A DNA stretch of 64,000 nucleotides from Longimicrobiales bacterium (GCA_965202805.1 OZ241869.1:2060652-2124651); one strand, 5' to 3'. Shown: positions 11,237 through 53,883, counted from the first letter of the stretch. A program made the numbers and translations. The notes: generated from the sequence alone by a model not told the origin.

Positions 11237-12403
11237 CTACCAACCCTTCGGGGTGATGCCGGCCGCCAGCGTCCCGATCTCCGCCACCGGAAGTACCGAG
11301 ATCCGGTCGTCGAGCGCGTACTCCTCATTGCCCGGATACACGACCCACAGATGCTCCAACCCGAGATCCTCCAGCGCCACCCGCATCGACCGCGTGGTTC
11401 CGGGGGCGTCCGCGAACTTGCACTCGAAACCGTATCGCTTCCCTCCCCGGAGAACGAGAAGATCGAGTTCGGCGCCGGCGTGGGTAGCCCAGTAGTACGC
11501 GTCGCGCGTCTCCAGCGCGCCAACCAGCTGCTCGACCACGAATCCCTCGAACGAGGCCCCGACTTTGGGGTGACCCAGCAACTGATCTTCTCCCGGAATG
11601 CCGAGCAGGGTGTGCAGAAGGCCCGTGTCACGGACGTACACCTTCGGCGCTTTCACCTGGCGCTTCTTCAGATTCTCGAACCAGGGCGGCAGCACGCGCA
11701 GCATGAAGGCGCCCGCCAGGATGTCGAGATAGCGTCGGGCGGTGCCTCCGCTCGATCCCAGCGCCCGTGCGAACTCCGCGGCGTTCCAGGTCTGCCCGTG
11801 GTAGTGCGCGATCATCGTCCAGAAGCGCCGCAGGCTCTCGGCCGGAATGGTGATGCCAAGCTGCGGGATGTCCCGCTCCAGAAACGTGCGCACGAAGTTG
11901 CGCCTCCAGAGCGATGACGCCCGGGTGCTGCGCGCGAGGAACGCGCGCGGGAAGCCGCCACGGCCCCAGAGAGTTCGCCAGGCATCGGTTCCCGTTTCAT
12001 TCAGGCCGAAACCGCCCAGGTCGACGAGCCCGACGCGCCCGGCGAGTGACTCCGATACGCCCTTCACCAGCTCCGGGGATGCGCTGCCCAGCAAGAGGAA
12101 ACGCGCGTCGCTGCCGGGACGGTCCACCAGCACGCGCAGGGTTTCGAAGAGCGCCGGCATTCGCTGGACTTCGTCGATGATCACCAACCCACGCAGTCGG
12201 TCCAGAGTCTGTTCAGGCGTGGCCAGGCGCTGCCGGTCGACGGCGGCTTCCAGATCGAACCAGGTGCTTCCCCGGGAGTCGGCGGCGATTTGCCGGGCAA
12301 GCGTCGTTTTGCCACACTGGCGGGGACCGGTCAGCGCGGCGCAGGGATGCACTTCCAGGGCTTCGTGGATGTGCTTGGCGGGTGTCGGGCGATCAATCAG
12401 CAT
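11237..12403 (-). CDS. AAA-type ATPase with DUF4143-like C-terminal domain (COG1373-type)
   Basis: Walker A GPRQCGKTTL and Walker B LVIIDEVQ. Overall similarity to the second copy at 33012..34262. ATG 12403 (MLIDRPTP...) is preferred to the ORF-track start at 12451. Confidence 0.8.
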   Translation of the reverse strand: MLIDRPTPAKHIHEALEVHPCAALTGPRQCGKTTLARQIAADSRGSTWFDLEAAVDRQRLATPEQTLDRLRGLVIIDEVQRMPALFETLRVLVDRPGSDARFLLLGSASPELVKGVSESLAGRVGLVDLGGFGLNETGTDAWRTLWGRGGFPRAFLARSTRASSLWRRNFVRTFLERDIPQLGITIPAESLRRFWTMIAHYHGQTWNAAEFARALGSSGGTARRYLDILAGAFMLRVLPPWFENLKKRQVKAPKVYVRDTGLLHTLLGIPGEDQLLGHPKVGASFEGFVVEQLVGALETRDAYYWATHAGAELDLLVLRGGKRYGFECKFADAPGTTRSMRVALEDLGLEHLWVVYPGNEEYALDDRISVLPVAEIGTLAAGITPKGW

Positions 12404-12415
12404 CACCCACAATAT

Positions 12416-12454
12416 TCCTTGCAAATCCGCAGTGCAAGTGAGGATTTTCAAGGA
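12416..12454 (-). terminator. hairpin (13-bp arms, 12/13 paired, 13-nt loop) between the serpin stop and the ATPase start
   Basis: tccttgcaaatcc (12416-12428) pairs with ggattttcaagga (12442-12454). On the minus-strand RNA it is followed by AUAUUGU. Could alternatively be an operator for the ATPase gene. Confidence 0.4.
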
Positions 12455-12472: not shown

Positions 12473-13795
12473 CTATCCCGCCCCCGACGGCCTCCGCAGC
12501 ACGCCCGCGAACAGGATCGCGCTCGACTCGCGCTCCCGGATCAGGTAGGCGAAGGGCCGGTCGGCGATCACCGACGGGGGAAGGCTCGTGACCCCGATCC
12601 CCACCGAGGTGGAGCCAGCCGCCTCCGCGCCCTCCTCGGACACCTCGACGAAGGTCCTCTGCTTCACTTCGGAGATGTAGAGCGGAGGAGGAGTCGCGGA
12701 GATGCCCGTGAAGTCGGCGACGTTTGGCATGAAGGGGTCCGTCATGCCGAGCGACTGGAGCGTCTCCTTCAGGCTCTTGTCGTATTCGACGCGGAACCTG
12801 GGGAGCACCACCCGCACCCTTCTCGTGGTCAGCTTGTCGAGGATGCTCTCCCAGCGCGTCTCATCCATCGACCCGATCTCGTCGTCGATGTTGCTCCCGT
12901 CTGCGGGGACCAGGACCGTCATCGCGAAGGCCCCCTCGCCGAAAGGCAGGTCCACGATCTGCAGGCTGCCGTCTCGGCCGTGGGGGAATTCGCGGGTCTG
13001 GTCCATCATCGGGATCGACTCGGACTCGCCTTCAGCGATGTGGAAAGGGGCATCGGTCGTCTTCTCGGGATCGAACGCGTACTGCCATGGACCCCTGAAG
13101 TAGACCGCGTTGATGAGGAAGAGCACCGTGCGGCTGTCGATGGGCGGCTCGATGATGCTCTCGATGCGTCCGTTCGTCTTCTCCGAGACCCATTGGTTCA
13201 TGGTGTCGGCCGCCGAGGCGTTGGAGAAGTCGAGCCCGGCGACCGTGGCATCGAAGAACGCGCGCACCGTGTTCAGGAAGGTCGGCTCGACCTCGAATCC
13301 GTGCCGATACCACGCGGAGTTGGCGATCTGCGTGTTCACGGTTGAGTCCGCCATCGGCAGATTCGTCATGAGGCCGCGATAGCCGTTGTTGATGGTGTCT
13401 ACCGCGACATCCGCGAACCCGAGCGTGGCCTGCATCTGATCGTACGTGGCGCCGCGGGCTCCGTTGAGCGCCATCCCGAGGGCCATGGAGGCGCTGAGCG
13501 GCGAGACGAGGACGTTCTCTTCCGGATCGGCGGCCATCGCGGCGGCGAGCAGATCCCGGGCGAAGAGGTTGCTCTTCTCGACGACTGCGGCCTCCGCCGA
13601 GGCCGAGCGCGGCGGGACGATGATCGAGTCGCCCGGGCCGGGGTCCGGGGGCTCGGGGATCGCGGGCTCGGCGGGACCGGGGTCGAGCGGGTCATCCGAG
13701 CAGGCCGGTGTCAGGATGACCGTCAGCCCGATCGCAAGGGCCAGCGCGGTGCGCGCCGTCGACGGAACGCGGGTCATGGAGGTAGCCGACTCCAT
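12473..13795 (-). CDS. serpin family protein (lipoprotein-type signal)
   Basis: Serpin-wide collinearity (VLVSPLSASMALGMALNGARG...). Hinge and reactive-centre loop EEGAEAAGSTSVGIGVT/SLPPSVIADRPF. Lipobox LTPAC. Confidence 0.9.
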   Translation of the reverse strand: MESATSMTRVPSTARTALALAIGLTVILTPACSDDPLDPGPAEPAIPEPPDPGPGDSIIVPPRSASAEAAVVEKSNLFARDLLAAAMAADPEENVLVSPLSASMALGMALNGARGATYDQMQATLGFADVAVDTINNGYRGLMTNLPMADSTVNTQIANSAWYRHGFEVEPTFLNTVRAFFDATVAGLDFSNASAADTMNQWVSEKTNGRIESIIEPPIDSRTVLFLINAVYFRGPWQYAFDPEKTTDAPFHIAEGESESIPMMDQTREFPHGRDGSLQIVDLPFGEGAFAMTVLVPADGSNIDDEIGSMDETRWESILDKLTTRRVRVVLPRFRVEYDKSLKETLQSLGMTDPFMPNVADFTGISATPPPLYISEVKQRTFVEVSEEGAEAAGSTSVGIGVTSLPPSVIADRPFAYLIRERESSAILFAGVLRRPSGAG

Positions 13796-20946: not shown

Positions 20947-21525
20947 TCAGTTCGGAGTCGGCGGCGTGACGACCGCGAGGCGGCCGCCGTCGTCCGGGGT
21001 CACCAGGATCACGTCTCGCGCGTCCGCGGAGACGATGGTGCTGAGAACCATGGCCGGGTCGCCGGAGGAGTCGGACGGGTCCGGGTTGGCGGCCGGGCTG
21101 GTGGTCGAATCGTCGAAGGACTGCGTCGGCGGGTCGGGAAGGAAGCTCACTTCGAGCGCGTGACGCCCGGGCGGGATCGGGAAGCGCTCGTGGACGCTGA
21201 CGGTGCGGGCCCGCGCGCTCGACCGACCCACCGGCCCGGCCCGGAGGGTGTCACCGTCCAGCAGAATCGTGAGCCGGAAGGACACCGCTTCGTCCGTGCA
21301 CACCTCCGTCGGGCGCATGTGCGGGAGGACGCCCCTCAGTTCGGCCTCCGTCGGCGGACGGCATCGCCGGTTGGATGGAGCCGGGATGCGCCACGACACC
21401 CGCAGTTCGGCGGCGTCCCCGGCCGAGGAGCGCCACGCGACCCGGGACAGGAGGACGATCCCGAGCAGGACGGTCACCGTCAGGGCCACGGCCGCCAGCT
21501 TCCGCGTGAACGTCGCTGCGGTCAT
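20947..21525 (-). CDS. hypothetical membrane-anchored protein
   Basis: ATG 21525 overlaps the upstream gene's stop (ATGA). One N-terminal TM helix (LAAVALTVTVLLGIVLL) is followed by a ~160-aa extracytoplasmic region. No family recognised. Confidence 0.45.
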   Translation of the reverse strand: MTAATFTRKLAAVALTVTVLLGIVLLSRVAWRSSAGDAAELRVSWRIPAPSNRRCRPPTEAELRGVLPHMRPTEVCTDEAVSFRLTILLDGDTLRAGPVGRSSARARTVSVHERFPIPPGRHALEVSFLPDPPTQSFDDSTTSPAANPDPSDSSGDPAMVLSTIVSADARDVILVTPDDGGRLAVVTPPTPN

Positions 21526-23063
21526 CGGGCCGCCGCCTTCCCGGGCACCTCGCACTCCGTGTCGATGGCGATCCCGTCTTCCCGGGTGGGGGCGTCGAGG
21601 AGCCCCAGCTCGCTCGCGAAATCAGCCCGGGCGCTCGCGAGGGCCTGCTCGTCGAAGCCGGACGCGTAGACGACCCGTACTCTCCGCCGGTCGACGCGCG
21701 CCTGCAGCTCCGCCTCTCTTTCGTGGTACAGCCGCTCGACGAGCCACCGGGGCCCCTCCCGGCCCCAGCAGTCGCGGGGCGGACACGCCACCACCAGAAC
21801 ACCGCCCACCCCGGCGCGCACCAGGTACTCCACCACCGAACTGTGCAGGTTGCCCGCGCACGACACCAGGAAGCGGCGGGAGTCCCTCCCCTGGCCCGGA
21901 CCGGCCGCGGACCGGCCGCACCCCACCACCACGATGTCCCCGCGCCCGAGCACCCGGCCTGCCGCGAACTCCCTGACGCGGCTCAGCTGGTCCCTGCCGG
22001 TGCGGCCGGGCGGCCCCACCCCCATGGGCGCGCACGACCCGGCGCAAATGCCGCAACTGACGCAGGCGGCCGGATTCACGCGGGCGACCAGACCCTCGCG
22101 CCCGTCGGTGCGTTCGACCATCCGGATGGCGTCCCAGGGACAGTCCACGTAGCACTGCTCGCACCCGGTGCACAGGCGCGTCGACGCCACCGAGGGCGCC
22201 GGCCGGCGGTCGGCGCGGGGACGCGTCAGGAGCGGCACGGCCAGCAGGGCCGTCCCCACCACCGCCGCGGCGAGCCACACCACCCCGGCGGAGGCGGAGC
22301 GGGCCGCCGGCAGCCAGAAGGCGTAGAAGACGTCCAGCACCACCTCCCCGGGCACCCGCAGCAGCTCCGCCGCGGGCGCCAGCGGGACGGGCAGAAGAAC
22401 CGCCGCCGCGACCAGCAGCCCGACCGTCCACCGGAGGAGCGGCCGCGGAGGCAGCATGACCGGCCGGGCGACCCGGGACACGTGCAGCCAGAGAAAGATC
22501 ACGATGCCGACCGGCAGCGCGATGTGCAGGAAGAGGTTCATGAAGAAGAAGGCGGCGGGCAGCGGGTCGGCGCCCGAGAAAGTCCGGGATATCGGTTCGG
22601 AGAAGAGCGGCAGGGCGTCGAGCAGCCGCGCACCCTCGGCGGCGAGCAACTGCCCCTGCGCGTCCCACACCATCACGTAGCCCGTCCAGCCGCAGACGTA
22701 CAGCAGGAACACCAGGAAGACGCCCGAAACCCAGGCGAGCGCGCGCGGCCCCCAGCTGCGGCCCTGGCAGAACATCCGCAGGGCGTGGGCGGCCGCGGCG
22801 ACCACGGCCAGGTCCGCCGCGTACCGGTGGAGCGACCGAATCCAGCGCCCTCCCCACACCTGGGCATCGATGCGGGCGACGGATTCCCAGGGTGCCCCGA
22901 TGCGGTAGAACAGGACCAGATAGAGCCCGGTGACGAGCACGACCGCCAGGCACGCCACCACCAGCGCGCCGGACTGGTAGAGCGGGTTCCACTTCCAGCC
23001 ATGGAGGCGGTCCACCCAGGAGTCGACGCGCCGCAGGGATTGCCCGAGGATTCGCTTGAGCAT
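21522..23063 (-). CDS. fusion protein: di-haem cytochrome b (N-terminal) + 2x[4Fe-4S] ferredoxin + MvhD/FlpD-like domain
   Basis: Two His-x13-His pairs sit on hydrophobic helices (HRYAADLAVVAAAAH; HIALPVGIVIFLWLH), as in cytochrome b. Cys clusters CTGCEQCYVDCP and CVSCGICAGSCAP. C-terminal VVVGCG...VSCAGN...VVACPPRDCW resembles the hydrogenase delta-subunit fold. Confidence 0.75.
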   Translation of the reverse strand: MLKRILGQSLRRVDSWVDRLHGWKWNPLYQSGALVVACLAVVLVTGLYLVLFYRIGAPWESVARIDAQVWGGRWIRSLHRYAADLAVVAAAAHALRMFCQGRSWGPRALAWVSGVFLVFLLYVCGWTGYVMVWDAQGQLLAAEGARLLDALPLFSEPISRTFSGADPLPAAFFFMNLFLHIALPVGIVIFLWLHVSRVARPVMLPPRPLLRWTVGLLVAAAVLLPVPLAPAAELLRVPGEVVLDVFYAFWLPAARSASAGVVWLAAAVVGTALLAVPLLTRPRADRRPAPSVASTRLCTGCEQCYVDCPWDAIRMVERTDGREGLVARVNPAACVSCGICAGSCAPMGVGPPGRTGRDQLSRVREFAAGRVLGRGDIVVVGCGRSAAGPGQGRDSRRFLVSCAGNLHSSVVEYLVRAGVGGVLVVACPPRDCWGREGPRWLVERLYHEREAELQARVDRRRVRVVYASGFDEQALASARADFASELGLLDAPTREDGIAIDTECEVPGKAAAR

Positions 23064-23312
23064 GGTGGTGTTCGCCGATTCGGCCGGAATGGACGTCGGG
23101 GGATCGCGCTCGCGTCCGCCTCCAGCCGCAACCGATTTCAGCCGGTTTCGCCGGAGGCCGCGAACGCTTGCGCGAGCATAAGTACCATATCATCATGACC
23201 TTATCCAGCATAGAGCACCGCGACGTGACCGAAGGCTCGCATGACCTCCAGGACGGCCGGCAACGCCCTTCCGGGGCGCGCCTGACCCCCAAACCCGAAG
23301 GAGCGCACACCC

Positions 23313-23498
23313 ATGGCCGACTCCGTCTCCCCTTCACCGCCCCCGGGTGACGAGGACGGGACCCCGGTTCCCCTCATGCAACGCCTCTACGACAGCCCGT
23401 TCCTGCTTCTCGCCGCGTGCATCCTGGTGATGTTCGTGTTCTTCACGGCGTGGGGCATGATCGAAATCATGTCGCTCGAACCCGCACCTTTGCCGTAG
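23313..23498 (+). CDS. small single-TM protein, possible oxidase subunit IIa analogue
   Basis: GAAGGAG SD. One TM helix (FLLLAACILVMFVFFTAWGMIEI). It sits immediately before subunit II, as cbaD does in the Thermus ba3 operon. The assignment is positional only. Confidence 0.45.
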   Translation: MADSVSPSPPPGDEDGTPVPLMQRLYDSPFLLLAACILVMFVFFTAWGMIEIMSLEPAPLP

Positions 23499-23513
23499 GG
23501 AGGGCCGCCGCCG

Positions 23514-24077
23514 ATGTACCGAACGGGAATCGAACCGCCGGAACGGATCTGGTGGAAGAAGATCGACCGCCACGAGAAGGTATGGGTGTGGATCGCCTTC
23601 GCGTGGTGCATGGTGCTCTTCGCGATGATGCCCCTCTGGCACCTGCGGGGCGGCCAGAACCCCTCCGGGATCCGGCACCGGGTGGAGCCGGCCGACTACC
23701 AGGCGAGGGTCACGGAGTTCATCCGGGAATACCAGGTGGGCACCGACAGCGGCTTCCCCGTAGTCGAACCGCCTCCGGGAAGCGATGTCTACCTGCAGGC
23801 GACGAGCTTCGCCTGGATGCCGGTGCTGCGGTTGCAACAGGGAGCCGAGTACGTCCTCCATCTCTCGTCGCTGGACGTGAACCACGGGTTCAACCTGTAC
23901 CCCCTCAACATCAATTTCCAGGTCGTTCCCGGATATGACTACGGCCTCCGGGTGGTCCCCAACGAGCCCGGTGAGTTCCACATCATATGCAACGAGTTCT
24001 GCGGAATCGGCCACCACCTGATGGTCGGCAAGATCATCGTCGAGCCGGCGGACGCGGAACAGGAAGGTGACCTGTGA
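23514..24077 (+). CDS. haem-copper oxidase subunit II (single TM helix + CuA cupredoxin domain)
   Basis: CuA ligand set: DVNHGF ... CNEFCGIGHHLM (CxExCGxxHxxM). One N-terminal TM helix, as in B-family subunit II. GGGAGG SD. Confidence 0.85.
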   Translation: MYRTGIEPPERIWWKKIDRHEKVWVWIAFAWCMVLFAMMPLWHLRGGQNPSGIRHRVEPADYQARVTEFIREYQVGTDSGFPVVEPPPGSDVYLQATSFAWMPVLRLQQGAEYVLHLSSLDVNHGFNLYPLNINFQVVPGYDYGLRVVPNEPGEFHIICNEFCGIGHHLMVGKIIVEPADAEQEGDL

Positions 24078-25795
24078 ACATCTTCCGGACCTGCCCGACG
24101 ACCGGCCTTCAGGTGCATCGAACCGCCGACCGCCTCATTCAGGCCAACGCGGTCGCGGCGACCGTGGCGCTCCTCATCGGGGGAATCGCGGCGCTGCTCG
24201 TCCTGCTGACGCGCTGGGAGGCCGTCCTCCTCCTCGACGCCGGCATGTTCTACCGCATGCTCACCGTGCACGGCATGAACATGCTCATCTTCTTCATCAT
24301 CTTCTTCGAGATGGCCGTGCTCTACTTCGCGTCCGCCGTCCTGCTCAACTGCAGGGTGCCGGCGCCCAGGGCCGGCTGGATCGCCTTCGCGCTCATGGTC
24401 GGCGGGGCGCTCATGGTCGAGTGGACGATGTGGACGGGCCGCGCCGACGTCCTGTTCACCTCCTACGTGCCGCTGCGGGCCCACCCGCTCTTCTATCTGG
24501 GGGTGATCCTGTTCGCGGTCGGCGCCCTGACCGTGGTCGGCCATTTCTTCGGCATCCTGACCGTGGCCAGGCGCGAGAATGCGTACGAGGGGTCGATGCC
24601 GCTGGTCACCTTCGGAGCACTCACCGCGGCCGCGATCGCGGCGGTCACCCTGCTGCACGGGGCGATCATCTACATCCCCACCTTCCTCTGGTCCCTCGGC
24701 CTCATGGAGGTCGATCCCCAGATGTACCGCCTGATCTGGTGGGGGCTCGGCCACTCCTCGCAGCAGATCAACGTGGCCGCCATGGTCTCGATCTGGTATC
24801 TGCTGGGCGCGCTCACGGTGGGCGCCGTGGTCCTGAACGAGAAAGTCAGCCGCACGGCGTTCGTCCTCTACGTCCTCTTCATCTCGATGGCCTCCGCGCA
24901 CCACCTGCTGGTCGACCCCGGGATGGGACCGGCGTGGAAGATCTGGAACACCAGCTACTTCATGTACATGGCCGTTCTGGCCTCGATGCTCCACGGCTTC
25001 ACCGTACCGGCCGGCATCGAATTGGGAATGCGCCTGCGGGGGGCGACCCAGGGGCTCTTCGGGTGGCTGAAGCGGGCCCCCTGGGGCGATCCCGGATTCA
25101 GCTCGCTGGTCTTCTCCATCGTGGTGTTCGGCTTCGTGGGCGGGATCACGGGAGTGACCTTCGGCACCGAACAGATCAACATCATCGCCCACAACACGCT
25201 GCGGATTCCCGGCCACTTCCACGCCACCGTGGTGTCGGGGACGGCGATGGCCTTCATGGGGATCACCTACTACGTCATTCCGCTCATCTTCCGGCGCGAG
25301 ATCGCCTTCTACCCGCTGGCCCGCATCCAGCCCTACCTGTTCGCCGTCGGCATGCTGGTGTTCTCGATGGCGATGACCTTCGCGGGCACCTTCGGCGTTC
25401 CGCGCAGGCACTGGAACGCCTCGTTCACGGGCGCGGTCTTCCAGCCCGAGTTCTCGCCCGCCGTCAACCTGATCATCGGCGTGATGGCGGTGGGCGGGCT
25501 GATCGCCATCGCCGGCGGCGCCATCTACATCGTGGTGACGGTGGTGTCGGTGTTCTTCGGGAAGAAGATGGCCGCGGACGATTCGGGGCTGGGCGCCGAG
25601 AGACGCGGTCTGCCTCCGGGCATCACCCATCCGCCACGCGCCCTGGTGGCGGAGGACAGCGAGGCGCTCGAACCCTCGGGCCGCATGGGACCGGTGCCGG
25701 GGACGATGGTGCTGGTGTTTATCTTCCTGGCCGCGTTCATCACCTACTACTTCGTGAACTGGACGCTGCTTTCGTTCCTGTGGGAGGTCGGATGA
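24074..25795 (+). CDS. haem-copper oxidoreductase subunit I, B-family-like, lacking the cross-linked Tyr
   Basis: Collinear with Thermus ba3 subunit I as I recall it: LTVHGMNM, WWGLGHSSQQ (helix VI CuB His), SAHHLLVDPG, GLFGWLKRAPWGDP, PGHFHATV, GVPRRHW. The GTG start overlaps the subunit II stop (GTGA). Confidence 0.9.
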   Translation: MNIFRTCPTTGLQVHRTADRLIQANAVAATVALLIGGIAALLVLLTRWEAVLLLDAGMFYRMLTVHGMNMLIFFIIFFEMAVLYFASAVLLNCRVPAPRAGWIAFALMVGGALMVEWTMWTGRADVLFTSYVPLRAHPLFYLGVILFAVGALTVVGHFFGILTVARRENAYEGSMPLVTFGALTAAAIAAVTLLHGAIIYIPTFLWSLGLMEVDPQMYRLIWWGLGHSSQQINVAAMVSIWYLLGALTVGAVVLNEKVSRTAFVLYVLFISMASAHHLLVDPGMGPAWKIWNTSYFMYMAVLASMLHGFTVPAGIELGMRLRGATQGLFGWLKRAPWGDPGFSSLVFSIVVFGFVGGITGVTFGTEQINIIAHNTLRIPGHFHATVVSGTAMAFMGITYYVIPLIFRREIAFYPLARIQPYLFAVGMLVFSMAMTFAGTFGVPRRHWNASFTGAVFQPEFSPAVNLIIGVMAVGGLIAIAGGAIYIVVTVVSVFFGKKMAADDSGLGAERRGLPPGITHPPRALVAEDSEALEPSGRMGPVPGTMVLVFIFLAAFITYYFVNWTLLSFLWEVG

Positions 25796-26817
25796 GAGAG
25801 GGGAGGGACGGTAGCGGGGCCGCCGCCGGGGCTGCCGCGGGCGGGGAGGGCCACGGGCCGACGGGCGTGAACGGTGCGCCCTCGTACGCGGCCGTTCGCG
25901 GGGCGATGGCGGCGATGGCGGCGCTGCTCGCGATCACGGTCGCGTGGTGGGCACTGGCGCTCTGGCCGGTGGCGGGGGTCCCGCCGGCGTGGCTGGAGCG
26001 TGCCCGCCAGGTGTGCTTCAACGCGGGTCCCTCAGGTCTCCCCGACGCGTCCGGATGGATGCTCCTGGTGGGCCAGCCCATCGGCATGCTGGCGGTGCTG
26101 ATGGTTGTCGCGGGGGATGCGGTGCGGGCGGGGCTGCGGCGGGCGCGGGGCAAACCGGCGGGCCGGGTTGCGCTCGCGGCGGCCGCCGGGGCGGTCGTGG
26201 CGGGGGCGGCGCTGGCCGGGGTGCGCGTCGCATCGGTTCCGGGGGACGCGGAGTGGCTGGAGGCCGCCCGCGCCGAGGTGCCCGCCACCTACCCGCGCCT
26301 GGACCGCCGCCTTCCGGCCATCGAGCTCGTCGACCAGCGCGGCGAAGCGTTCACGTGGGAGCGCATCGCGGGCCGCCCGGCGCTCCTCACCTTCGGCTTC
26401 GGGCACTGCGAGACCGTCTGTCCCATGACGGTCATGAACGCGCGCCGGGTCCAGGACCGGTTCCGGGGGGAGGGCCGGAAGATGGCGCTGGTGGTGATCA
26501 CGCTCGATCCCTGGCGCGACACCCCGTCCCGGCTTCCCGCCCTGGCGCGACAGTTCCACCTCGGCGGCGAGGGTTCGCATGCGAATGCGGAGGAAGGCGG
26601 CGAAGGCGGGGAGGGCGCGGGGTCCTTCCTGCTTTCCGGCTCGGTAGATGAGGTCAACGCGGCGCTGGACGCGCTGCAGGTGGCTCGCGAGCGGGTGCCG
26701 CGCACGGGAGACATCGTGCACCCGGCTCTCGTGTACCTGCTGGACGCGGAGGGTACGGTGGCCTACGCCGCGAGCGCGCACGCCGACCTGATCGAGGAGC
26801 TGGCGCGCCGCATGTAG
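25792..26817 (+). CDS. SCO1/SenC-type copper chaperone fused to an N-terminal polytopic membrane domain
   Basis: ATGA overlap with the subunit I stop. Thioredoxin-fold motif FGFGHCETVCP (CxxxC) with downstream DIVHPALVYLLD His. About 170 N-terminal residues contain 3 hydrophobic segments. Confidence 0.8.
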   Translation: MREGRDGSGAAAGAAAGGEGHGPTGVNGAPSYAAVRGAMAAMAALLAITVAWWALALWPVAGVPPAWLERARQVCFNAGPSGLPDASGWMLLVGQPIGMLAVLMVVAGDAVRAGLRRARGKPAGRVALAAAAGAVVAGAALAGVRVASVPGDAEWLEAARAEVPATYPRLDRRLPAIELVDQRGEAFTWERIAGRPALLTFGFGHCETVCPMTVMNARRVQDRFRGEGRKMALVVITLDPWRDTPSRLPALARQFHLGGEGSHANAEEGGEGGEGAGSFLLSGSVDEVNAALDALQVARERVPRTGDIVHPALVYLLDAEGTVAYAASAHADLIEELARRM

Positions 26818-33011: not shown

Positions 33012-34262
33012 TTACGGCCCCAGCGCCCCGATCGGAATCACGCTCACCCCGTCTTCCCGCGTGTAGCCGTAGCCGCTGCTCACGATCACACCGAGCGCTG
33101 CCGGCTCGCCCATGCGCTTCGGGTCCACCCGTTGCGCCAGTCGCAGCAGGTTGGCGGCTCCCGCGTCCGCCCGGCCCTCGCCAAGCTTGACCTCGAAGGC
33201 CGCCCAGCGGCCGTCGTTGGCCTGCACGATCGCGTCCACCTCCAGACCGCCCTTCTCGCGGTAGTGGAAGACCTCGGCATCGGCGGCCTGGGCATAGACG
33301 CGCAGATCCCGGATCACCATCGACTCGAAGAGGAGCCCAAGGAAGTCGAGGTCGCGAAGCAGCCGAGGAGGCGTCGCGCGGACGGCGGCCACGGCGAGCG
33401 ACGGGTCCGCAAGGTGCCGGACCGGCTTGCTCCTCAGAACCGATCTCGATCTCAGATGCGTGGGCCATGACGGCTGGTTCTCCACGATCATGATGCGCTC
33501 CAGCGCTCGAAGGTAGTCCGCCGCGGTGTGCTCCCTGATGGCGGACATGCCTTCGCCGGTGTCCGAGGCGAGGGTTGCGGTCGCCACGGGTGTCGCGACG
33601 TTCCTCGCCAGAGACCGAAGGAGCATGCCCACCCGCACAGGGTCTCGCTTTCTGCCATCGCCATTGGCGATGTCGAGGCGCCGGATCTCGTCGAGGTGAT
33701 CCCTGTTGGCACGGAGCGCCGTTTGCGTGCTGCGCCCAAGGTTGACGGGCCAGCCGCCTACGCAGATCAGCGCCGCCAGGTCATCGAGGAGGACTACCGA
33801 TCTGCCTGCCCTGGCGGGCGTCCCTTCCAGGAGACCGGCCAGCGAAATTTCGCCGGACGAATGACCCAACTCGAACAGTGAGAGCGGGCGCATGCGGAGA
33901 CGCGTCAGGCGTCCGGCACCGGTATGTCGGGTGGCGTCGTCAGCCGGCACCGCCGAACCGGTGAGGATGAACTGACCCGGCTGGCGCCGATCGTCCACGG
34001 CCCTGCGCACGTGGTTCCAGATCGCCGGCTCCAGCTGCCATTCGTCGATCAACCGCGGGACGTTGCCGACCAGCACGCGGGCCGGTTCGAGGCTGGCCAG
34101 GCGTCGCGCCACATCGTCGACGTCGAGCCTCACTTCGCTGGCGGCGATCTGCTGCGCCGTGGTGGTCTTTCCGCAGGCCCGAGGGCCCTCAATCACGACT
34201 GCGCCGGTGGCCTGCAAGCGCTCCGCCAGTTCGCGGTCGACGATTCTGGGCTGGTAAGTCAA
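33012..34262 (-). CDS. AAA-type ATPase with DUF4143-like C-terminal domain (second copy)
   Basis: Walker A GPRACGKTTT and LIDEWQ. Same architecture as 11237..12403. TTG 34262 (giving MTYQPRIVDREL...) is preferred to ATG 34391. The extra 43 aa from ATG 34391 are low-complexity and overlap the repeat array. Confidence 0.75.
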   Translation of the reverse strand: MTYQPRIVDRELAERLQATGAVVIEGPRACGKTTTAQQIAASEVRLDVDDVARRLASLEPARVLVGNVPRLIDEWQLEPAIWNHVRRAVDDRRQPGQFILTGSAVPADDATRHTGAGRLTRLRMRPLSLFELGHSSGEISLAGLLEGTPARAGRSVVLLDDLAALICVGGWPVNLGRSTQTALRANRDHLDEIRRLDIANGDGRKRDPVRVGMLLRSLARNVATPVATATLASDTGEGMSAIREHTAADYLRALERIMIVENQPSWPTHLRSRSVLRSKPVRHLADPSLAVAAVRATPPRLLRDLDFLGLLFESMVIRDLRVYAQAADAEVFHYREKGGLEVDAIVQANDGRWAAFEVKLGEGRADAGAANLLRLAQRVDPKRMGEPAALGVIVSSGYGYTREDGVSVIPIGALGP

Positions 34263-34372
34263 GTTGGTACCGGCATGGGGGCAGGCGAATCCGGTTGATC
34301 GAAGATGGCCGGGGGTCTGTCGGGCGCAGGCGCACGAGGATGGTAACCGTAGGGAAGACTTCGGAAAAGGTG

Positions 34373-34464
34373 TCAGCGTCAGATTCGGCATCGTATCAGC
34401 GTCAGAAATAGCGTATTACCGACGACAGAAATATCTCATCGTCAACGTCAGAAATGGCGCAGAC
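34373..34464. repeat. four direct repeats with exact 23-bp period (TCAGCGTCAGAAAT-type), iteron-like
   Basis: Unit starts are 34373, 34396, 34419 and 34442. The 11-mer tcagcgtcaga is identical in units 1 and 2, matches 10/11 in unit 4 and 7/11 in unit 3. Local G+C is lower than in the flanks. Confidence 0.8.

Positions 34465-50000: not shown

Positions 50001-53883
<3,883 letters not shown>

What the first reader, a model, noticed from the sequence alone, without database searches (positions are those of the whole stretch)
23313..26817. ba3-like haem-copper oxidoreductase lacking the His-Tyr cofactor (HSSQQ in place of HPxVY): candidate NO-reductase-type or new HCO subfamily
Operon order IIa-like / II / I mirrors Thermus cbaDBA. 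Subunit I is collinear with ba3 and keeps all six metal-ligand His (TVHG, GLGH, AHH, HFH). Subunit II keeps a complete CuA site. The helix-VI motif, however, reads W-W-G-L-G-H-S-S-Q-Q-I-N-V. The residue at His+4 is the cross-linked Tyr in A and B families and is Glu in cNOR (HLWVE); here it is Gln, and the conserved Pro is Ser. The ba3 Y244 equivalent is also lost, while a Tyr at His+15 (Y248-like) remains. Loss of the His-Tyr cofactor in B-family-related enzymes is the hallmark described for the proposed eNOR/bNOR/sNOR/gNOR/nNOR nitric-oxide-reductase clades. I cannot place this sequence in one of them from memory. A helix-VII Tyr (VLYVLF, 10 residues before HH) could alternatively substitute, as in C-family oxidases. 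The operon ends with an unusual SCO chaperone fused to a 3-TM domain.
Basis: partly seen in the sequence, partly recalled or inferred. Interest (0 to 1): 0.75.

Follow-up and report, generated by a model that had tools for sequence, protein, structure and literature searches.

The report
eNOR-type nitric oxide reductase operon
This is a misannotated but ordinary member of the already described eNOR family, respiratory enzymes related to oxygen-reducing oxidases that make nitrous oxide from nitric oxide, found here in a Gemmatimonadota-like genome.

Summary
Four translationally coupled genes (23313-26817, + strand) encode a 61-aa single-helix subunit, a CuA subunit II, a haem-copper subunit I and a membrane-anchored SCO copper chaperone. 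Subunit I keeps all six metal-ligand histidines. It has Gln231 where oxygen reductases have the cross-linked Tyr (ba3 Y237).

This is not a new subfamily. Gln at that site is the published diagnostic of the eNOR family (Hemp & Gennis 2008; Schwartz 2022). One member, from Rhodothermus marinus, was purified and reduces NO but not O2 (Murali 2024).

- 320 of 321 full-length relatives carry GHxxQQxN.
- In a bootstrap tree built without the motif columns, the protein sits inside a 95%-supported "QQ" clade. That clade holds Accumulibacter, haloarchaeal, Chloroflexi and Thermus sequences, which are the taxa where eNOR was named.
- A Tyr-retaining archaeal sister clade shares the helix-VII Tyr266. 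Tyr266 is therefore not a migrated cofactor.
- The ba3 K-type proton path is largely kept.
- A dihaem cytochrome b/Fe-S/MvhD-like fusion, transcribed divergently here, accompanies the enzyme in 79 of 86 loci.

No nir or nos genes lie in the window, and activity is inferred. Verdict: a new member of a known kind, of low interest.

The parts
23313..23498 (+). Small subunit of 61 aa with one transmembrane helix, like ba3 subunit IIa.
   Evidence: ORF. The same gene is called in two public assemblies. One hydrophobic segment at residues 30-48. tblastn finds a homologue directly upstream of subunit II in 47 of 86 related loci. No Pfam or NCBIfam family.
23514..24077 (+). Subunit II of 187 aa: one TM helix plus a periplasmic cupredoxin domain with a complete CuA site. 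Glu21 is the counterpart of ba3 subunit II Glu15, the entrance of the K-type proton path.
   Evidence: Pfam COX2. Best PDB match is ba3 subunit II, E 1.9e-21. DVNHGF and CNEFCGIGHHLM align with ba3 H114, C149, C153, H157 and M160, and 'rhEkvw' aligns with 'ayEkgw'.
24074..25795 (+). Catalytic subunit I of 573 aa, eNOR type. The low-spin haem ligands are H66 and H383. The high-spin haem ligand is H381. The non-haem metal ligands are H227, H276 and H277. Gln231 (24764-24766) replaces the cross-linked Tyr.
   Evidence: Pfam COX1, E 1.5e-57. Alignments to ba3. Family conservation. Tree. AlphaFold model with pLDDT 86.5 and pTM 0.89, most similar to ba3 and the Aquifex B-family oxidase, TM 0.75-0.80.
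24752..24772 (+). Helix VI signature H-S-S-Q-Q-I-N (H227-N233). Q230, Q231 and N233 are invariant in the family.
   Evidence: translation. Q230, Q231 and N233 are each conserved in 108 of 108 representatives.
25792..26817 (+). SCO1/SenC copper chaperone of 341 aa with an N-terminal domain of three hydrophobic segments. It presumably loads copper into CuA.
   Evidence: Pfam SCO1-SenC, E 7.7e-26, residues 177-321. CETVC motif, the TM segments, and an N-terminal domain (TVAWWxLALWP...VCFNxGPxGLPDxSGW) conserved in Gemmatimonadota relatives L091, L093 and L094 but not in the proteobacterial SCO.
21522..23063 (-). Divergently transcribed partner of 513 aa. It has a dihaem cytochrome b6-like N-terminal domain with all four haem His present, two further TM helices, a 2x[4Fe-4S] ferredoxin domain and an MvhD/FlpD-like domain. 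By topology the Fe-S domains are predicted to be cytoplasmic.
   Evidence: Pfam Cytochrome_B, Fer4_7 and FlpD. PDB cytochrome b6, E 3e-16, with both His pairs aligned. The C-terminal half resembles the C-terminus of HdrA2. A homologue lies next to the oxidase genes in 79 of 86 loci.
20947..21513 (-). Protein of 188 aa with one TM helix and unknown function, downstream of the cytochrome b fusion. It may be the 'eNOR scaffold protein' of the Ferrigenium preprint.
   Evidence: Gene call. About 30% identity to the 172-aa protein at the same position in the Defluviimonas plasmid; homologues of that protein occur in 71 of 86 loci. No Pfam or NCBIfam family.
23064..23312 (.). Divergent intergenic region of 249 bp, presumably holding both promoters. 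In close relatives this position carries an Rrf2-family regulator gene that is absent here.
   Evidence: Sequence. No TTGA-N6-TCAA box anywhere in the window. An Rrf2 gene with three Cys sits at this position in L091, L093 and L094. The window has no Rrf2 homologue.

Best explanation
The locus encodes an eNOR-family haem-copper oxidoreductase, a nitric oxide reductase descended from B-family (ba3-like) oxygen reductases.

Shown here:
- The complex has three subunits: a IIa-like helix, CuA subunit II and subunit I.
- All six metal-ligand His are retained.
- Gln occupies the position of the His-Tyr cofactor.
- Most of the ba3 K-type proton path is retained.
- The protein falls in the eNOR clade.
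- A co-transcribed SCO chaperone and a conserved cytochrome b/Fe-S partner accompany it.

Inferred mechanism:
1. A periplasmic one-electron carrier reduces CuA.
2. Electrons pass to the low-spin haem (H66/H383).
3. They then reach the binuclear site, made of the high-spin haem (H381) and a non-haem metal held by H227, H276 and H277.
4. There two NO are reduced to N2O and water.
5. Without the redox-active Tyr the enzyme lacks the fourth electron needed for clean O2 reduction.
6. Protons probably come from the cytoplasm along E21(II) - T310 - S304/H307 - Y242 - N255 - Q231/Q230. That would make the reaction electrogenic.

SCO loads copper into CuA. The role of the cytochrome b/[4Fe-4S]/MvhD-like fusion and the 188-aa protein is unknown. 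The physiological role, respiratory denitrification or NO detoxification, is open because the window has no nir or nos genes.
For: Diagnostic residue. Gln is at the Tyr position by two independent alignments. Published definition: eNOR has Gln there and one proton channel (PMC8756737 Table A4).

Biochemistry of the family. R. marinus eNOR reduces NO at 0.68 per second and does not reduce O2 (PMC11214002).

Conservation. GHxxQQxN occurs in 320 of 321 relatives. E79, Q230, Q231, N233, Y242, Y266, H307, E316 and R320 are each 108 of 108; S304 is 107 of 108.

Phylogeny, by neighbour-joining with the motif columns removed and 200 bootstraps:
- QQ clade: 95%.
- Query together with the proteobacterial sequences, including Accumulibacter: 96%.
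- QQ clade plus the Tyr-retaining sister clade: 100%.

The clade holds the named eNOR taxa: Accumulibacter, a haloarchaeon, Anaerolineae, Caldilineae and Thermus. The Thermus proteins carry the His/Lys low-spin haem variant that Murali et al. ascribe to some eNORs.

Identity to the query:
- 52-56% to the proteobacterial and Accumulibacter proteins.
- 26-31% to B-family oxidases.

Subunit II. CuA is complete and the E15(II) equivalent is present.

Synteny. The order II-I-(haem o synthase)-SCO-cytochrome b/Fe-S-small protein matches the eNOR operon described for Ferrigenium straubiae.

Links to NO metabolism:
- A full-length NirS gene lies within 10 kb in 16 of 80 proteobacterial loci and in Thermus.
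- Cluster-type Rrf2 regulators lie next to the operon in Gemmatimonadota relatives and in Thermus.
Against: - No activity data exist for this protein or for any Gemmatimonadota member.
- The R. marinus sequence itself could not be retrieved. The link to the characterised enzyme runs through the diagnostic residue, the named taxa and the operon description, not through direct comparison.
- The 64-kb window has no nir, nos, nar, haem o/a synthase or Rrf2 gene.
- The identity of the non-haem metal (Fe or Cu) is unknown, even for the family.
- The tree is neighbour-joining on 45 sequences, not maximum likelihood on the curated superfamily alignment.
Confidence: 0.8

Rival explanations
1. It is still an oxygen reductase, a B-family variant. 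Another residue supplies the fourth electron, for example Tyr266 in helix VII, Tyr242 or a Trp.
For: The fold and all metal ligands are those of ba3. Y266 and Y242 are invariant. The window looks like that of an aerobic heterotroph, with KatG, peptidases and no denitrification genes. A relative carries the operon next to a canonical B-family oxidase.
Against: - The only purified family member shows no O2 reduction with several donors.
- Y266 is equally conserved in the sister clade that keeps the canonical Tyr, so it predates the loss.
- Y266 lies 10 residues before HH. The C-family Tyr lies 6 before HH, a position recalled from the P. stutzeri cbb3 structure and not tested here.
- Y242 is 15 residues from H227 on one continuous helix.
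Confidence: 0.06
2. It is a member of the same clade but works on another substrate or does other chemistry, such as NO dismutation, N2O or another small oxidant. Alternatively it is a sensor or scavenger rather than a respiratory enzyme.
For: Most related loci (about 80%) have no NirS gene within 10 kb. A hemerythrin and a cytochrome b/Fe-S/MvhD-like protein of unknown role are conserved partners. Schwartz et al. leave 'alternative substrates' open.
Against: NO reduction was measured directly for R. marinus eNOR. The active-site residues are invariant across the clade. eNOR is expressed under denitrifying conditions in Accumulibacter, Gallionellaceae and Ferrigenium.
Confidence: 0.08
3. It is a new HCO subfamily distinct from eNOR that reached Gln at the Tyr position by convergence.
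For: Convergent active sites are known in this superfamily: sNOR with bNOR, and nNOR with cNOR. The Gemmatimonadota loci differ in arrangement: a divergent cytochrome b gene, a 3-TM SCO fusion and no adjacent haem o synthase.
Against: The query groups with the proteobacterial and Accumulibacter sequences at 96% bootstrap with the motif columns excluded. It shares a long list of family-specific invariant residues and the same accessory genes.
Confidence: 0.04

Closest known systems
eNOR family of haem-copper nitric oxide reductases. Examples are the purified R. marinus DSM 4252 enzyme, the Magnetospirillum magnetotacticum 'cytochrome a1-like' protein, and the Accumulibacter, Ferrigenium, haloarchaeal and Chloroflexi members.
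   Same: - Gln replaces the cross-linked Tyr.
- There are three His ligands for the non-haem metal.
- Subunit II carries CuA.
- A K-type proton path is present.
- The accessory genes match: SCO, cytochrome b/Fe-S and a small membrane protein.
- The protein is placed inside the clade.
   Different: - The host is Gemmatimonadota.
- No haem o/a synthase or hemerythrin gene lies next to the operon.
- The cytochrome b fusion is transcribed divergently.
- SCO carries a lineage-specific N-terminal 3-TM domain.
- There are no nir genes nearby.
- Haem type, metal and activity are untested.
Thermus thermophilus cytochrome ba3 oxidase (B family; PDB 1EHK) and the Aquifex aeolicus B-family oxidase (PDB 7DEG).
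   Same: - Gene order is IIa/II/I.
- The fold matches, TM 0.75-0.80.
- The six His ligands and the CuA site are retained.
- The equivalents of E15(II), Y248, S309 and T315 are retained.
   Different: - Only 28-31% identity.
- Changes, in ba3 numbering: Y237 to Gln, V236 to Gln, W239 to Asn, Y244 to Val, T312 to His, S261 to Asn and P234 to Ser.
- An extra conserved Glu79 in helix II and Tyr266 in helix VII.
Tyr-retaining sister clade 'GHxxQYxN', found in Thermoproteota and Hodarchaeales MAGs. It is probably the 'K family' of O2 reductases that the FIND preprint says clusters with eNOR.
   Same: 39-44% identity for three members (P0126, P0129, P0130) and 35% for P0147. Shares Q230, N233, H307, E79 and Y266; three of the four members also have the FRxC-type N-terminal motif (P0147 lacks it). 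The joint clade has 100% bootstrap.
   Different: It keeps the cross-link Tyr, so it is presumably an oxygen reductase. The members whose source is named are archaeal MAGs. The identification with the K family is my inference, not a test.
bNOR (qCuANOR) of Bacillus azotoformans and the sNOR family.
   Same: They are B-family-derived NO reductases without the Tyr. bNOR has a CuA subunit and a K-type channel and is electrogenic.
   Different: [quoted passage not shown] Both are separate clades in the published tree. No reference sequence was obtained here.

Membership tests
eNOR | Gln at the position of the cross-linked active-site Tyr (His+4 in helix VI). | tested here: met
   Q231 aligns with ba3 Y237 in phmmer and MAFFT. 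Definition from PMC8756737 Table A4.
eNOR | All three His ligands of the non-haem metal and the haem His ligands are retained. The low-spin haem is His/His, or His/Lys in some members. | tested here: met
   H227, H276, H277, H381, H66 and H383. The His/Lys variant is seen in the Thermus relatives.
eNOR | A CuA-containing cupredoxin subunit II encoded immediately upstream. | tested here: met
   Complete H...CxExCGxxHxxM site. Best PDB match is ba3 subunit II.
eNOR | A conserved proton channel resembling the B-family K-channel. | tested here: met
   E21(II), T310, S304 and Y242 are conserved. H307 replaces T312, N255 replaces S261 and V238 replaces Y244. The first and third hold family-wide; at position 255 most of the family has Ser. 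Function of the channel is not tested.
eNOR | Phylogenetic placement inside the eNOR clade of the HCO superfamily. | tested here: met
   Neighbour-joining bootstrap of 95% for the QQ clade and 96% for the query with the proteobacterial and Accumulibacter sequences, motif columns excluded. The clade holds haloarchaeal, Chloroflexi and Thermus members. Caveat: the R. marinus sequence and the curated HMMs were not available.
eNOR | Typical operon content: haem o synthase and/or CtaA, SCO, and a small 'scaffold' protein. | tested here: inconclusive
   SCO, the cytochrome b/Fe-S fusion and the small membrane protein are present. Haem o/a synthase and hemerythrin are absent from the whole window.
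eNOR | NO reductase activity without O2 reductase activity, and modified haem As in both haem sites. | not testable with these tools
   Known only for the R. marinus enzyme.
B-family oxygen reductase (ba3 type) | An HPxVY motif with a Tyr that can cross-link to the CuB His. | tested here: not met
   The motif is HSSQQ. All B-family references in the alignment have Y.
C-family-type active site | The cofactor Tyr has migrated to helix VII, 6 residues before the HH pair. The position is recalled from the P. stutzeri cbb3 structure. | tested here: not met
   The residue 6 before H276 is Ile270. The only helix-VII Tyr is Y266 at minus 10, and it is also present in the Tyr-retaining sister clade.
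sNOR / bNOR | Asn at the Tyr position. | tested here: not met
   Gln231. [quoted passage not shown]
cNOR / qNOR / nNOR | Glu at the Tyr position as a fourth ligand of FeB. nNOR also has a His/Met low-spin haem. | tested here: not met
   Gln231 and a His/His low-spin haem. Definitions.
gNOR | One active-site His is replaced by Asp, and subunit II lacks the CuA ligands. | tested here: not met
   All three His are present and CuA is complete. Definition.

The most novel reading that the evidence does not exclude
The dihaem cytochrome b/2x[4Fe-4S]/MvhD-like fusion and its small single-helix neighbour accompany eNOR genes in about 90% of the loci examined. They may be an integral, so far uncharacterised module of the enzyme system. 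It could be a dedicated electron route between the quinol pool or a cytoplasmic carrier and NO reduction, or a maturation device for the O2-dependent haem A-type cofactor. The Gemmatimonadota version, with a divergent operon, an Rrf2 regulator in relatives and a 3-TM SCO fusion, would be a distinct layout of it.
Probability: 0.25. Interest if true: 0.55.

Novelty: new member of a known kind. Interest (0 to 1): 0.25.

Why it matters
The practical value is annotation. [quoted passage not shown] NCBIfam has no model for them: the best match is CtaD at 58 bits against a cut-off of 671. Genome surveys therefore score such organisms as lacking a nitric oxide reductase.

Recognising eNOR in Gemmatimonadota matters for N2O budgets. 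The phylum is abundant in soils and sediments and is known for nosZ. The enzyme may also conserve energy through a cytoplasmic proton path.

The family, its diagnostic Gln and its activity are already published, and recent metagenomic studies already count eNOR genes. A specialist would not be surprised.

The one open biological question that this locus makes visible is the role of the almost always co-located cytochrome b/Fe-S/MvhD-like protein.

Tried and rejected
1. Getting the R. marinus eNOR sequence for direct comparison failed.
   - No supplement text is held for Murali 2024.
   - The plasmid tblastn, the GTDB scan (ranked towards Proteobacteria) and a search seeded with the Thermus protein did not return it.
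2. Plasmid hits from Geobacillus, Deinococcus and haloarchaea were fetched in the hope of sNOR, bNOR or haloarchaeal eNOR references. All turned out to be ordinary HPxVY B-family oxidases. They were used as the outgroup.
3. A search for nir, nos or nar genes in the window by Pfam scans of 40 ORFs found none.
4. A search for an FNR/DNR-type box (TTGA-N6-TCAA) gave 0 matches in the window. No Rrf2 homologue is in the window either.
5. A word-start literature search for 'eNOR' with 'Gemmatimonad' was swamped by 'enormous'. It was repeated with whole-word matching.
6. The structure model gave fold-level confirmation only. The tools return no coordinates, so the distance from Y266 to H227 could not be measured.
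7. My first bootstrap run used wrong clade labels because a regular expression caught the first 'GH'. It was discarded and redone from the alignment column.


Full report
**What is there**

The region 23313-26817 holds four + strand genes:
- a 61-aa protein (23313-23498),
- a 187-aa subunit II (23514-24077),
- a 573-aa subunit I (24074-25795),
- a 341-aa SCO protein (25792-26817).

The II/I and I/SCO junctions overlap by 4 bp, which indicates one translationally coupled operon. Pfam assigns COX2, COX1 (E 1.5e-57) and SCO1-SenC. The small protein has a single hydrophobic helix.

Public gene calls on two other assemblies that carry the identical subunit I agree with these boundaries. Relatives at 91% identity are labelled Gemmatimonadetes/Gemmatimonadota MAGs. 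The window has about 69% G+C. It therefore most likely comes from that phylum; this is an inference.

**Checking the observation**

phmmer against PDB chains gives B-family oxidases as the only matches: 7DEG at E 6e-48 and T. thermophilus ba3 at E 2e-44. It aligns 'wwglgHssqQin' with 'fwwtgHpivYfw'. A MAFFT L-INS-i alignment of 52 sequences, read in ba3 numbering, gives the same register.

| This protein | ba3 | Role in ba3 |
|---|---|---|
| H66, H383 | H72, H386 | low-spin haem ligands |
| H381 | H384 | high-spin haem ligand |
| H227, H276, H277 | H233, H282, H283 | CuB ligands |
| Q231 | Y237 | cross-linked Tyr |
| Q230 | V236 | |
| N233 | W239 | |
| S228 | P234 | |
| V238 | Y244 | K-path residue |
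| Y242 | Y248 | K-path residue |
| N255 | S261 | K-path residue |
| S304 | S309 | K-path residue |
| H307 | T312 | K-path residue |
| T310 | T315 | K-path residue |

The model's helix VI runs unbroken from 215 to 249, so there is no room for a register shift.

Subunit II matches ba3 subunit II best (E 1.9e-21). It has every CuA ligand. It also has Glu21 at the position of ba3 Glu15(II), the entrance of the K-type proton path.

**What it is**

The literature names this arrangement. Table A4 of Schwartz et al. 2022, after Hemp & Gennis 2008, lists the residue at the Tyr site:
- Y for oxygen reductases,
- E for cNOR and qNOR,
- N for sNOR,
- Q with one proton channel for eNOR.

Those authors used the Gln to define the eNOR ingroup. 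Murali et al. 2024 purified the eNOR of Rhodothermus marinus. It reduces NO (0.68 per second at 25 °C) and does not reduce O2. It contains haem As. They found no migrated Tyr in these families. They also note that some eNORs have a His/Lys low-spin haem and that eNOR keeps a K-like proton channel.

**Testing membership**

*Motif conservation.* 320 of 321 full-length relatives collected here carry GHxxQQxN. In 108 representatives, E79, Q230, Q231, N233, Y242, E256, R260, Y266, H307, E316 and R320 are invariant, and S304 is conserved in 107.

*Distribution.* A scan of one genome per GTDB species with the patterns L[IL]F[WF]..E and [WY]W[GI]xGH[GSM][SAT]QQ gave at least 491 confirmed relatives. 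The 80 retained are Proteobacteria, including five Accumulibacter genomes. Murali et al. name Accumulibacter as an eNOR carrier.

*Other members of the clade.*
- The 50%-identity representative P0124 (HGTQQIN) is from the haloarchaeon Natrarchaeobius. Haloarchaea are where eNOR was first described.
- A search seeded with the Thermus plasmid protein returned Thermus, Armatimonadota, Anaerolineae and Caldilineae proteins.
- The Thermus proteins read HFK instead of HFH. This is the His/Lys variant.

*Tree.* I built a neighbour-joining tree on 510 columns with the motif columns removed, with 200 bootstraps.
- The QQ clade has 95% support.
- The query's Gemmatimonadota group joins the proteobacterial and Accumulibacter sequences at 96%.
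- The QQ clade plus a Tyr-retaining sister clade has 100%.

| Compared with | Identity of the query |
|---|---|
| Proteobacterial and Accumulibacter proteins | 52-56% |
| Thermomicrobium | 50% |
| Thermus | 46% |
| Haloarchaeal protein | 40% |
| Sister clade | 35-44% |
| B-family oxidases, including ba3 | 26-31% |

I could not obtain the R. marinus sequence or the curated HMMs. The link to the characterised enzyme is therefore indirect.

**The alternative Tyr**

Y266 (VLYVLF) is invariant in the family. It is equally present in the sister clade, GH(T/S)(L/A)QY(V/I)N. That clade comprises P0126, P0129 (Thermoproteota), P0130 (Hodarchaeales) and P0147, and it still has the canonical Tyr.

Y266, E79, Q230, N233 and H307 therefore predate the Tyr-to-Gln change. 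Y266 lies 10 residues before HH. The C-family cofactor Tyr lies 6 before HH, a position I recall from memory; that position is Ile270 here. The sister clade is probably the 'K family' that the FIND preprint reports next to eNOR. That identification is my inference.

**Surroundings**

Two genes are transcribed divergently.
- 21522-23063 encodes a 513-aa fusion. It has a dihaem cytochrome b6-like domain (PDB E 3e-16, both His pairs conserved), two more TM helices, a 2x[4Fe-4S] domain and an MvhD/FlpD-like domain.
- 20947-21513 encodes a 188-aa single-helix protein.

tblastn over 86 loci shows a conserved cluster: small subunit - II - I - haem o synthase - (SCO) - cytochrome b fusion - small protein - hemerythrin. 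The fusion is present in 79 loci. This matches the eNOR operon described for Ferrigenium straubiae: II, I, haem o synthase, sco1, a scaffold protein and cytochrome b/Fe-S proteins.

Links to NO metabolism in relatives:
- A full-length NirS gene (43-55% identical to Thermus NirS) lies within 10 kb in 16 of the 80 proteobacterial loci.
- In T. thermophilus NAR1 the genes sit between nirS, cytochrome P460 and an Rrf2 regulator.
- Three Gemmatimonadota relatives at 80-88% identity have a three-Cys Rrf2 regulator exactly in the divergent intergenic region.

The window itself has no Rrf2, haem o/a synthase, hemerythrin, nir, nos or nar gene. Its other genes are peptidases, transporters, malic enzyme, KatG and the like. 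The physiological role in this organism is therefore open.

The SCO N-terminal 3-TM domain is conserved within Gemmatimonadota but not in Proteobacteria.

**Structure**

An AlphaFold2 model built from a 61-sequence alignment has pLDDT 86.5 and pTM 0.89. Foldseek ranks ba3 and the Aquifex B-family oxidase first (TM 0.75-0.80), then A-family oxidases. No NOR of this type appears among the top 50 listed matches. Coordinates are not returned, so active-site distances were not measured.

**Mechanism**

*Shown:* the ligand set, the CuA site, the loss of the Tyr, the retained polar path and the clade membership.

*Inferred from the family and from ba3:*
1. Electrons go from CuA to the low-spin haem and then to the haem/non-haem-metal centre.
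2. There 2 NO + 2 e- + 2 H+ give N2O + H2O.
3. Protons are taken from the cytoplasm, so the reaction is electrogenic.
4. SCO serves CuA assembly.

*Unknown:* the metal (Fe or Cu), the haem type, the electron donor, and the role of the cytochrome b fusion.

**Verdict**

It is a new, misannotated member of a known family and is of modest interest. NCBIfam has no model for it, and records name it a cbb3-type oxidase.

Noticed in passing
window 20947-23063 (- strand); L001, L004-L083: A dihaem cytochrome b / 2x[4Fe-4S] / MvhD(FlpD)-like fusion and a small single-helix protein accompany the eNOR genes in 79 and 71 of 86 loci. The Ferrigenium preprint calls such cytochrome b proteins 'rather unusual', but here they are the rule. 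Their function is unknown.
   Followed up: partly
L091 8748-9161, L093 8749-9171, L094 8788-9255; L003 13718-14143; window 23064-23312: Gemmatimonadota relatives carry a three-Cys Rrf2-family regulator (NsrR/IscR-like spacing) between the cytochrome b fusion and the small-subunit gene. Thermus has an Rrf2 gene just downstream of subunit I. The window has only a 249-bp gap there and no Rrf2 homologue in 64 kb.
   Followed up: partly
proteins P0126, P0129, P0130, P0147 (not in the window): A sister clade of eNOR keeps the cross-link Tyr (GHxxQYxN). It already has Q230, N233, H307, E79 and Y266. Its two members with a named source are from Thermoproteota and Hodarchaeales MAGs. It looks like the oxygen-reductase stock from which eNOR arose by a Tyr-to-Gln change.
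   Followed up: partly
proteins P0170, P0181, P0217, P0225, P0237 (not in the window): These are distant HCO-like proteins with altered ligand sets. One group has 'FHVxHY' in helix VI, Tyr-His instead of His-His in helix VII, and Tyr at the position of the high-spin haem His. Another group has 'GGGHxLQ(Y/F)' and no HH pair. The alignment at these sites was not verified.
   Followed up: no
window 24074-24130 (subunit I residues 1-15): An N-terminal cytoplasmic motif F-R-T-C-P-x-T-G-L (R5, C7 and T10 at least 97% conserved) is specific to the eNOR clade and part of its sister clade. It is absent from B-family oxidases. The model predicts a short beta hairpin there.
   Followed up: no
window 25792-26817: The SCO protein has a 17-aa Gly/Glu-rich insert (GGEGSHANAEEGGEGGEGAGS) that its close relatives lack. 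Its N-terminal 3-TM domain contains a conserved VCFNxGPxGLPDxSGW stretch with one Cys.
   Followed up: partly
L094 13100-15430 (- strand): A close relative (88% identical subunit I) has a canonical B-family oxidase (HPLVY; subunits I, II and a small subunit) about 0.4 kb downstream of the eNOR operon's SCO gene. Both enzyme types therefore coexist in this lineage.
   Followed up: partly
window 12473-13795 (-), 50001-52394 (-), 11237-12451 (-), 33012-34391 (-): Other genes in the window include a bacterial serpin (Pfam E 1e-104), a KatG-type catalase-peroxidase, and two AAA_14/DUF4143 ATPase genes. The rest of the window is rich in secreted peptidases (S9, M20, M24, M28) and transporters.
   Followed up: no
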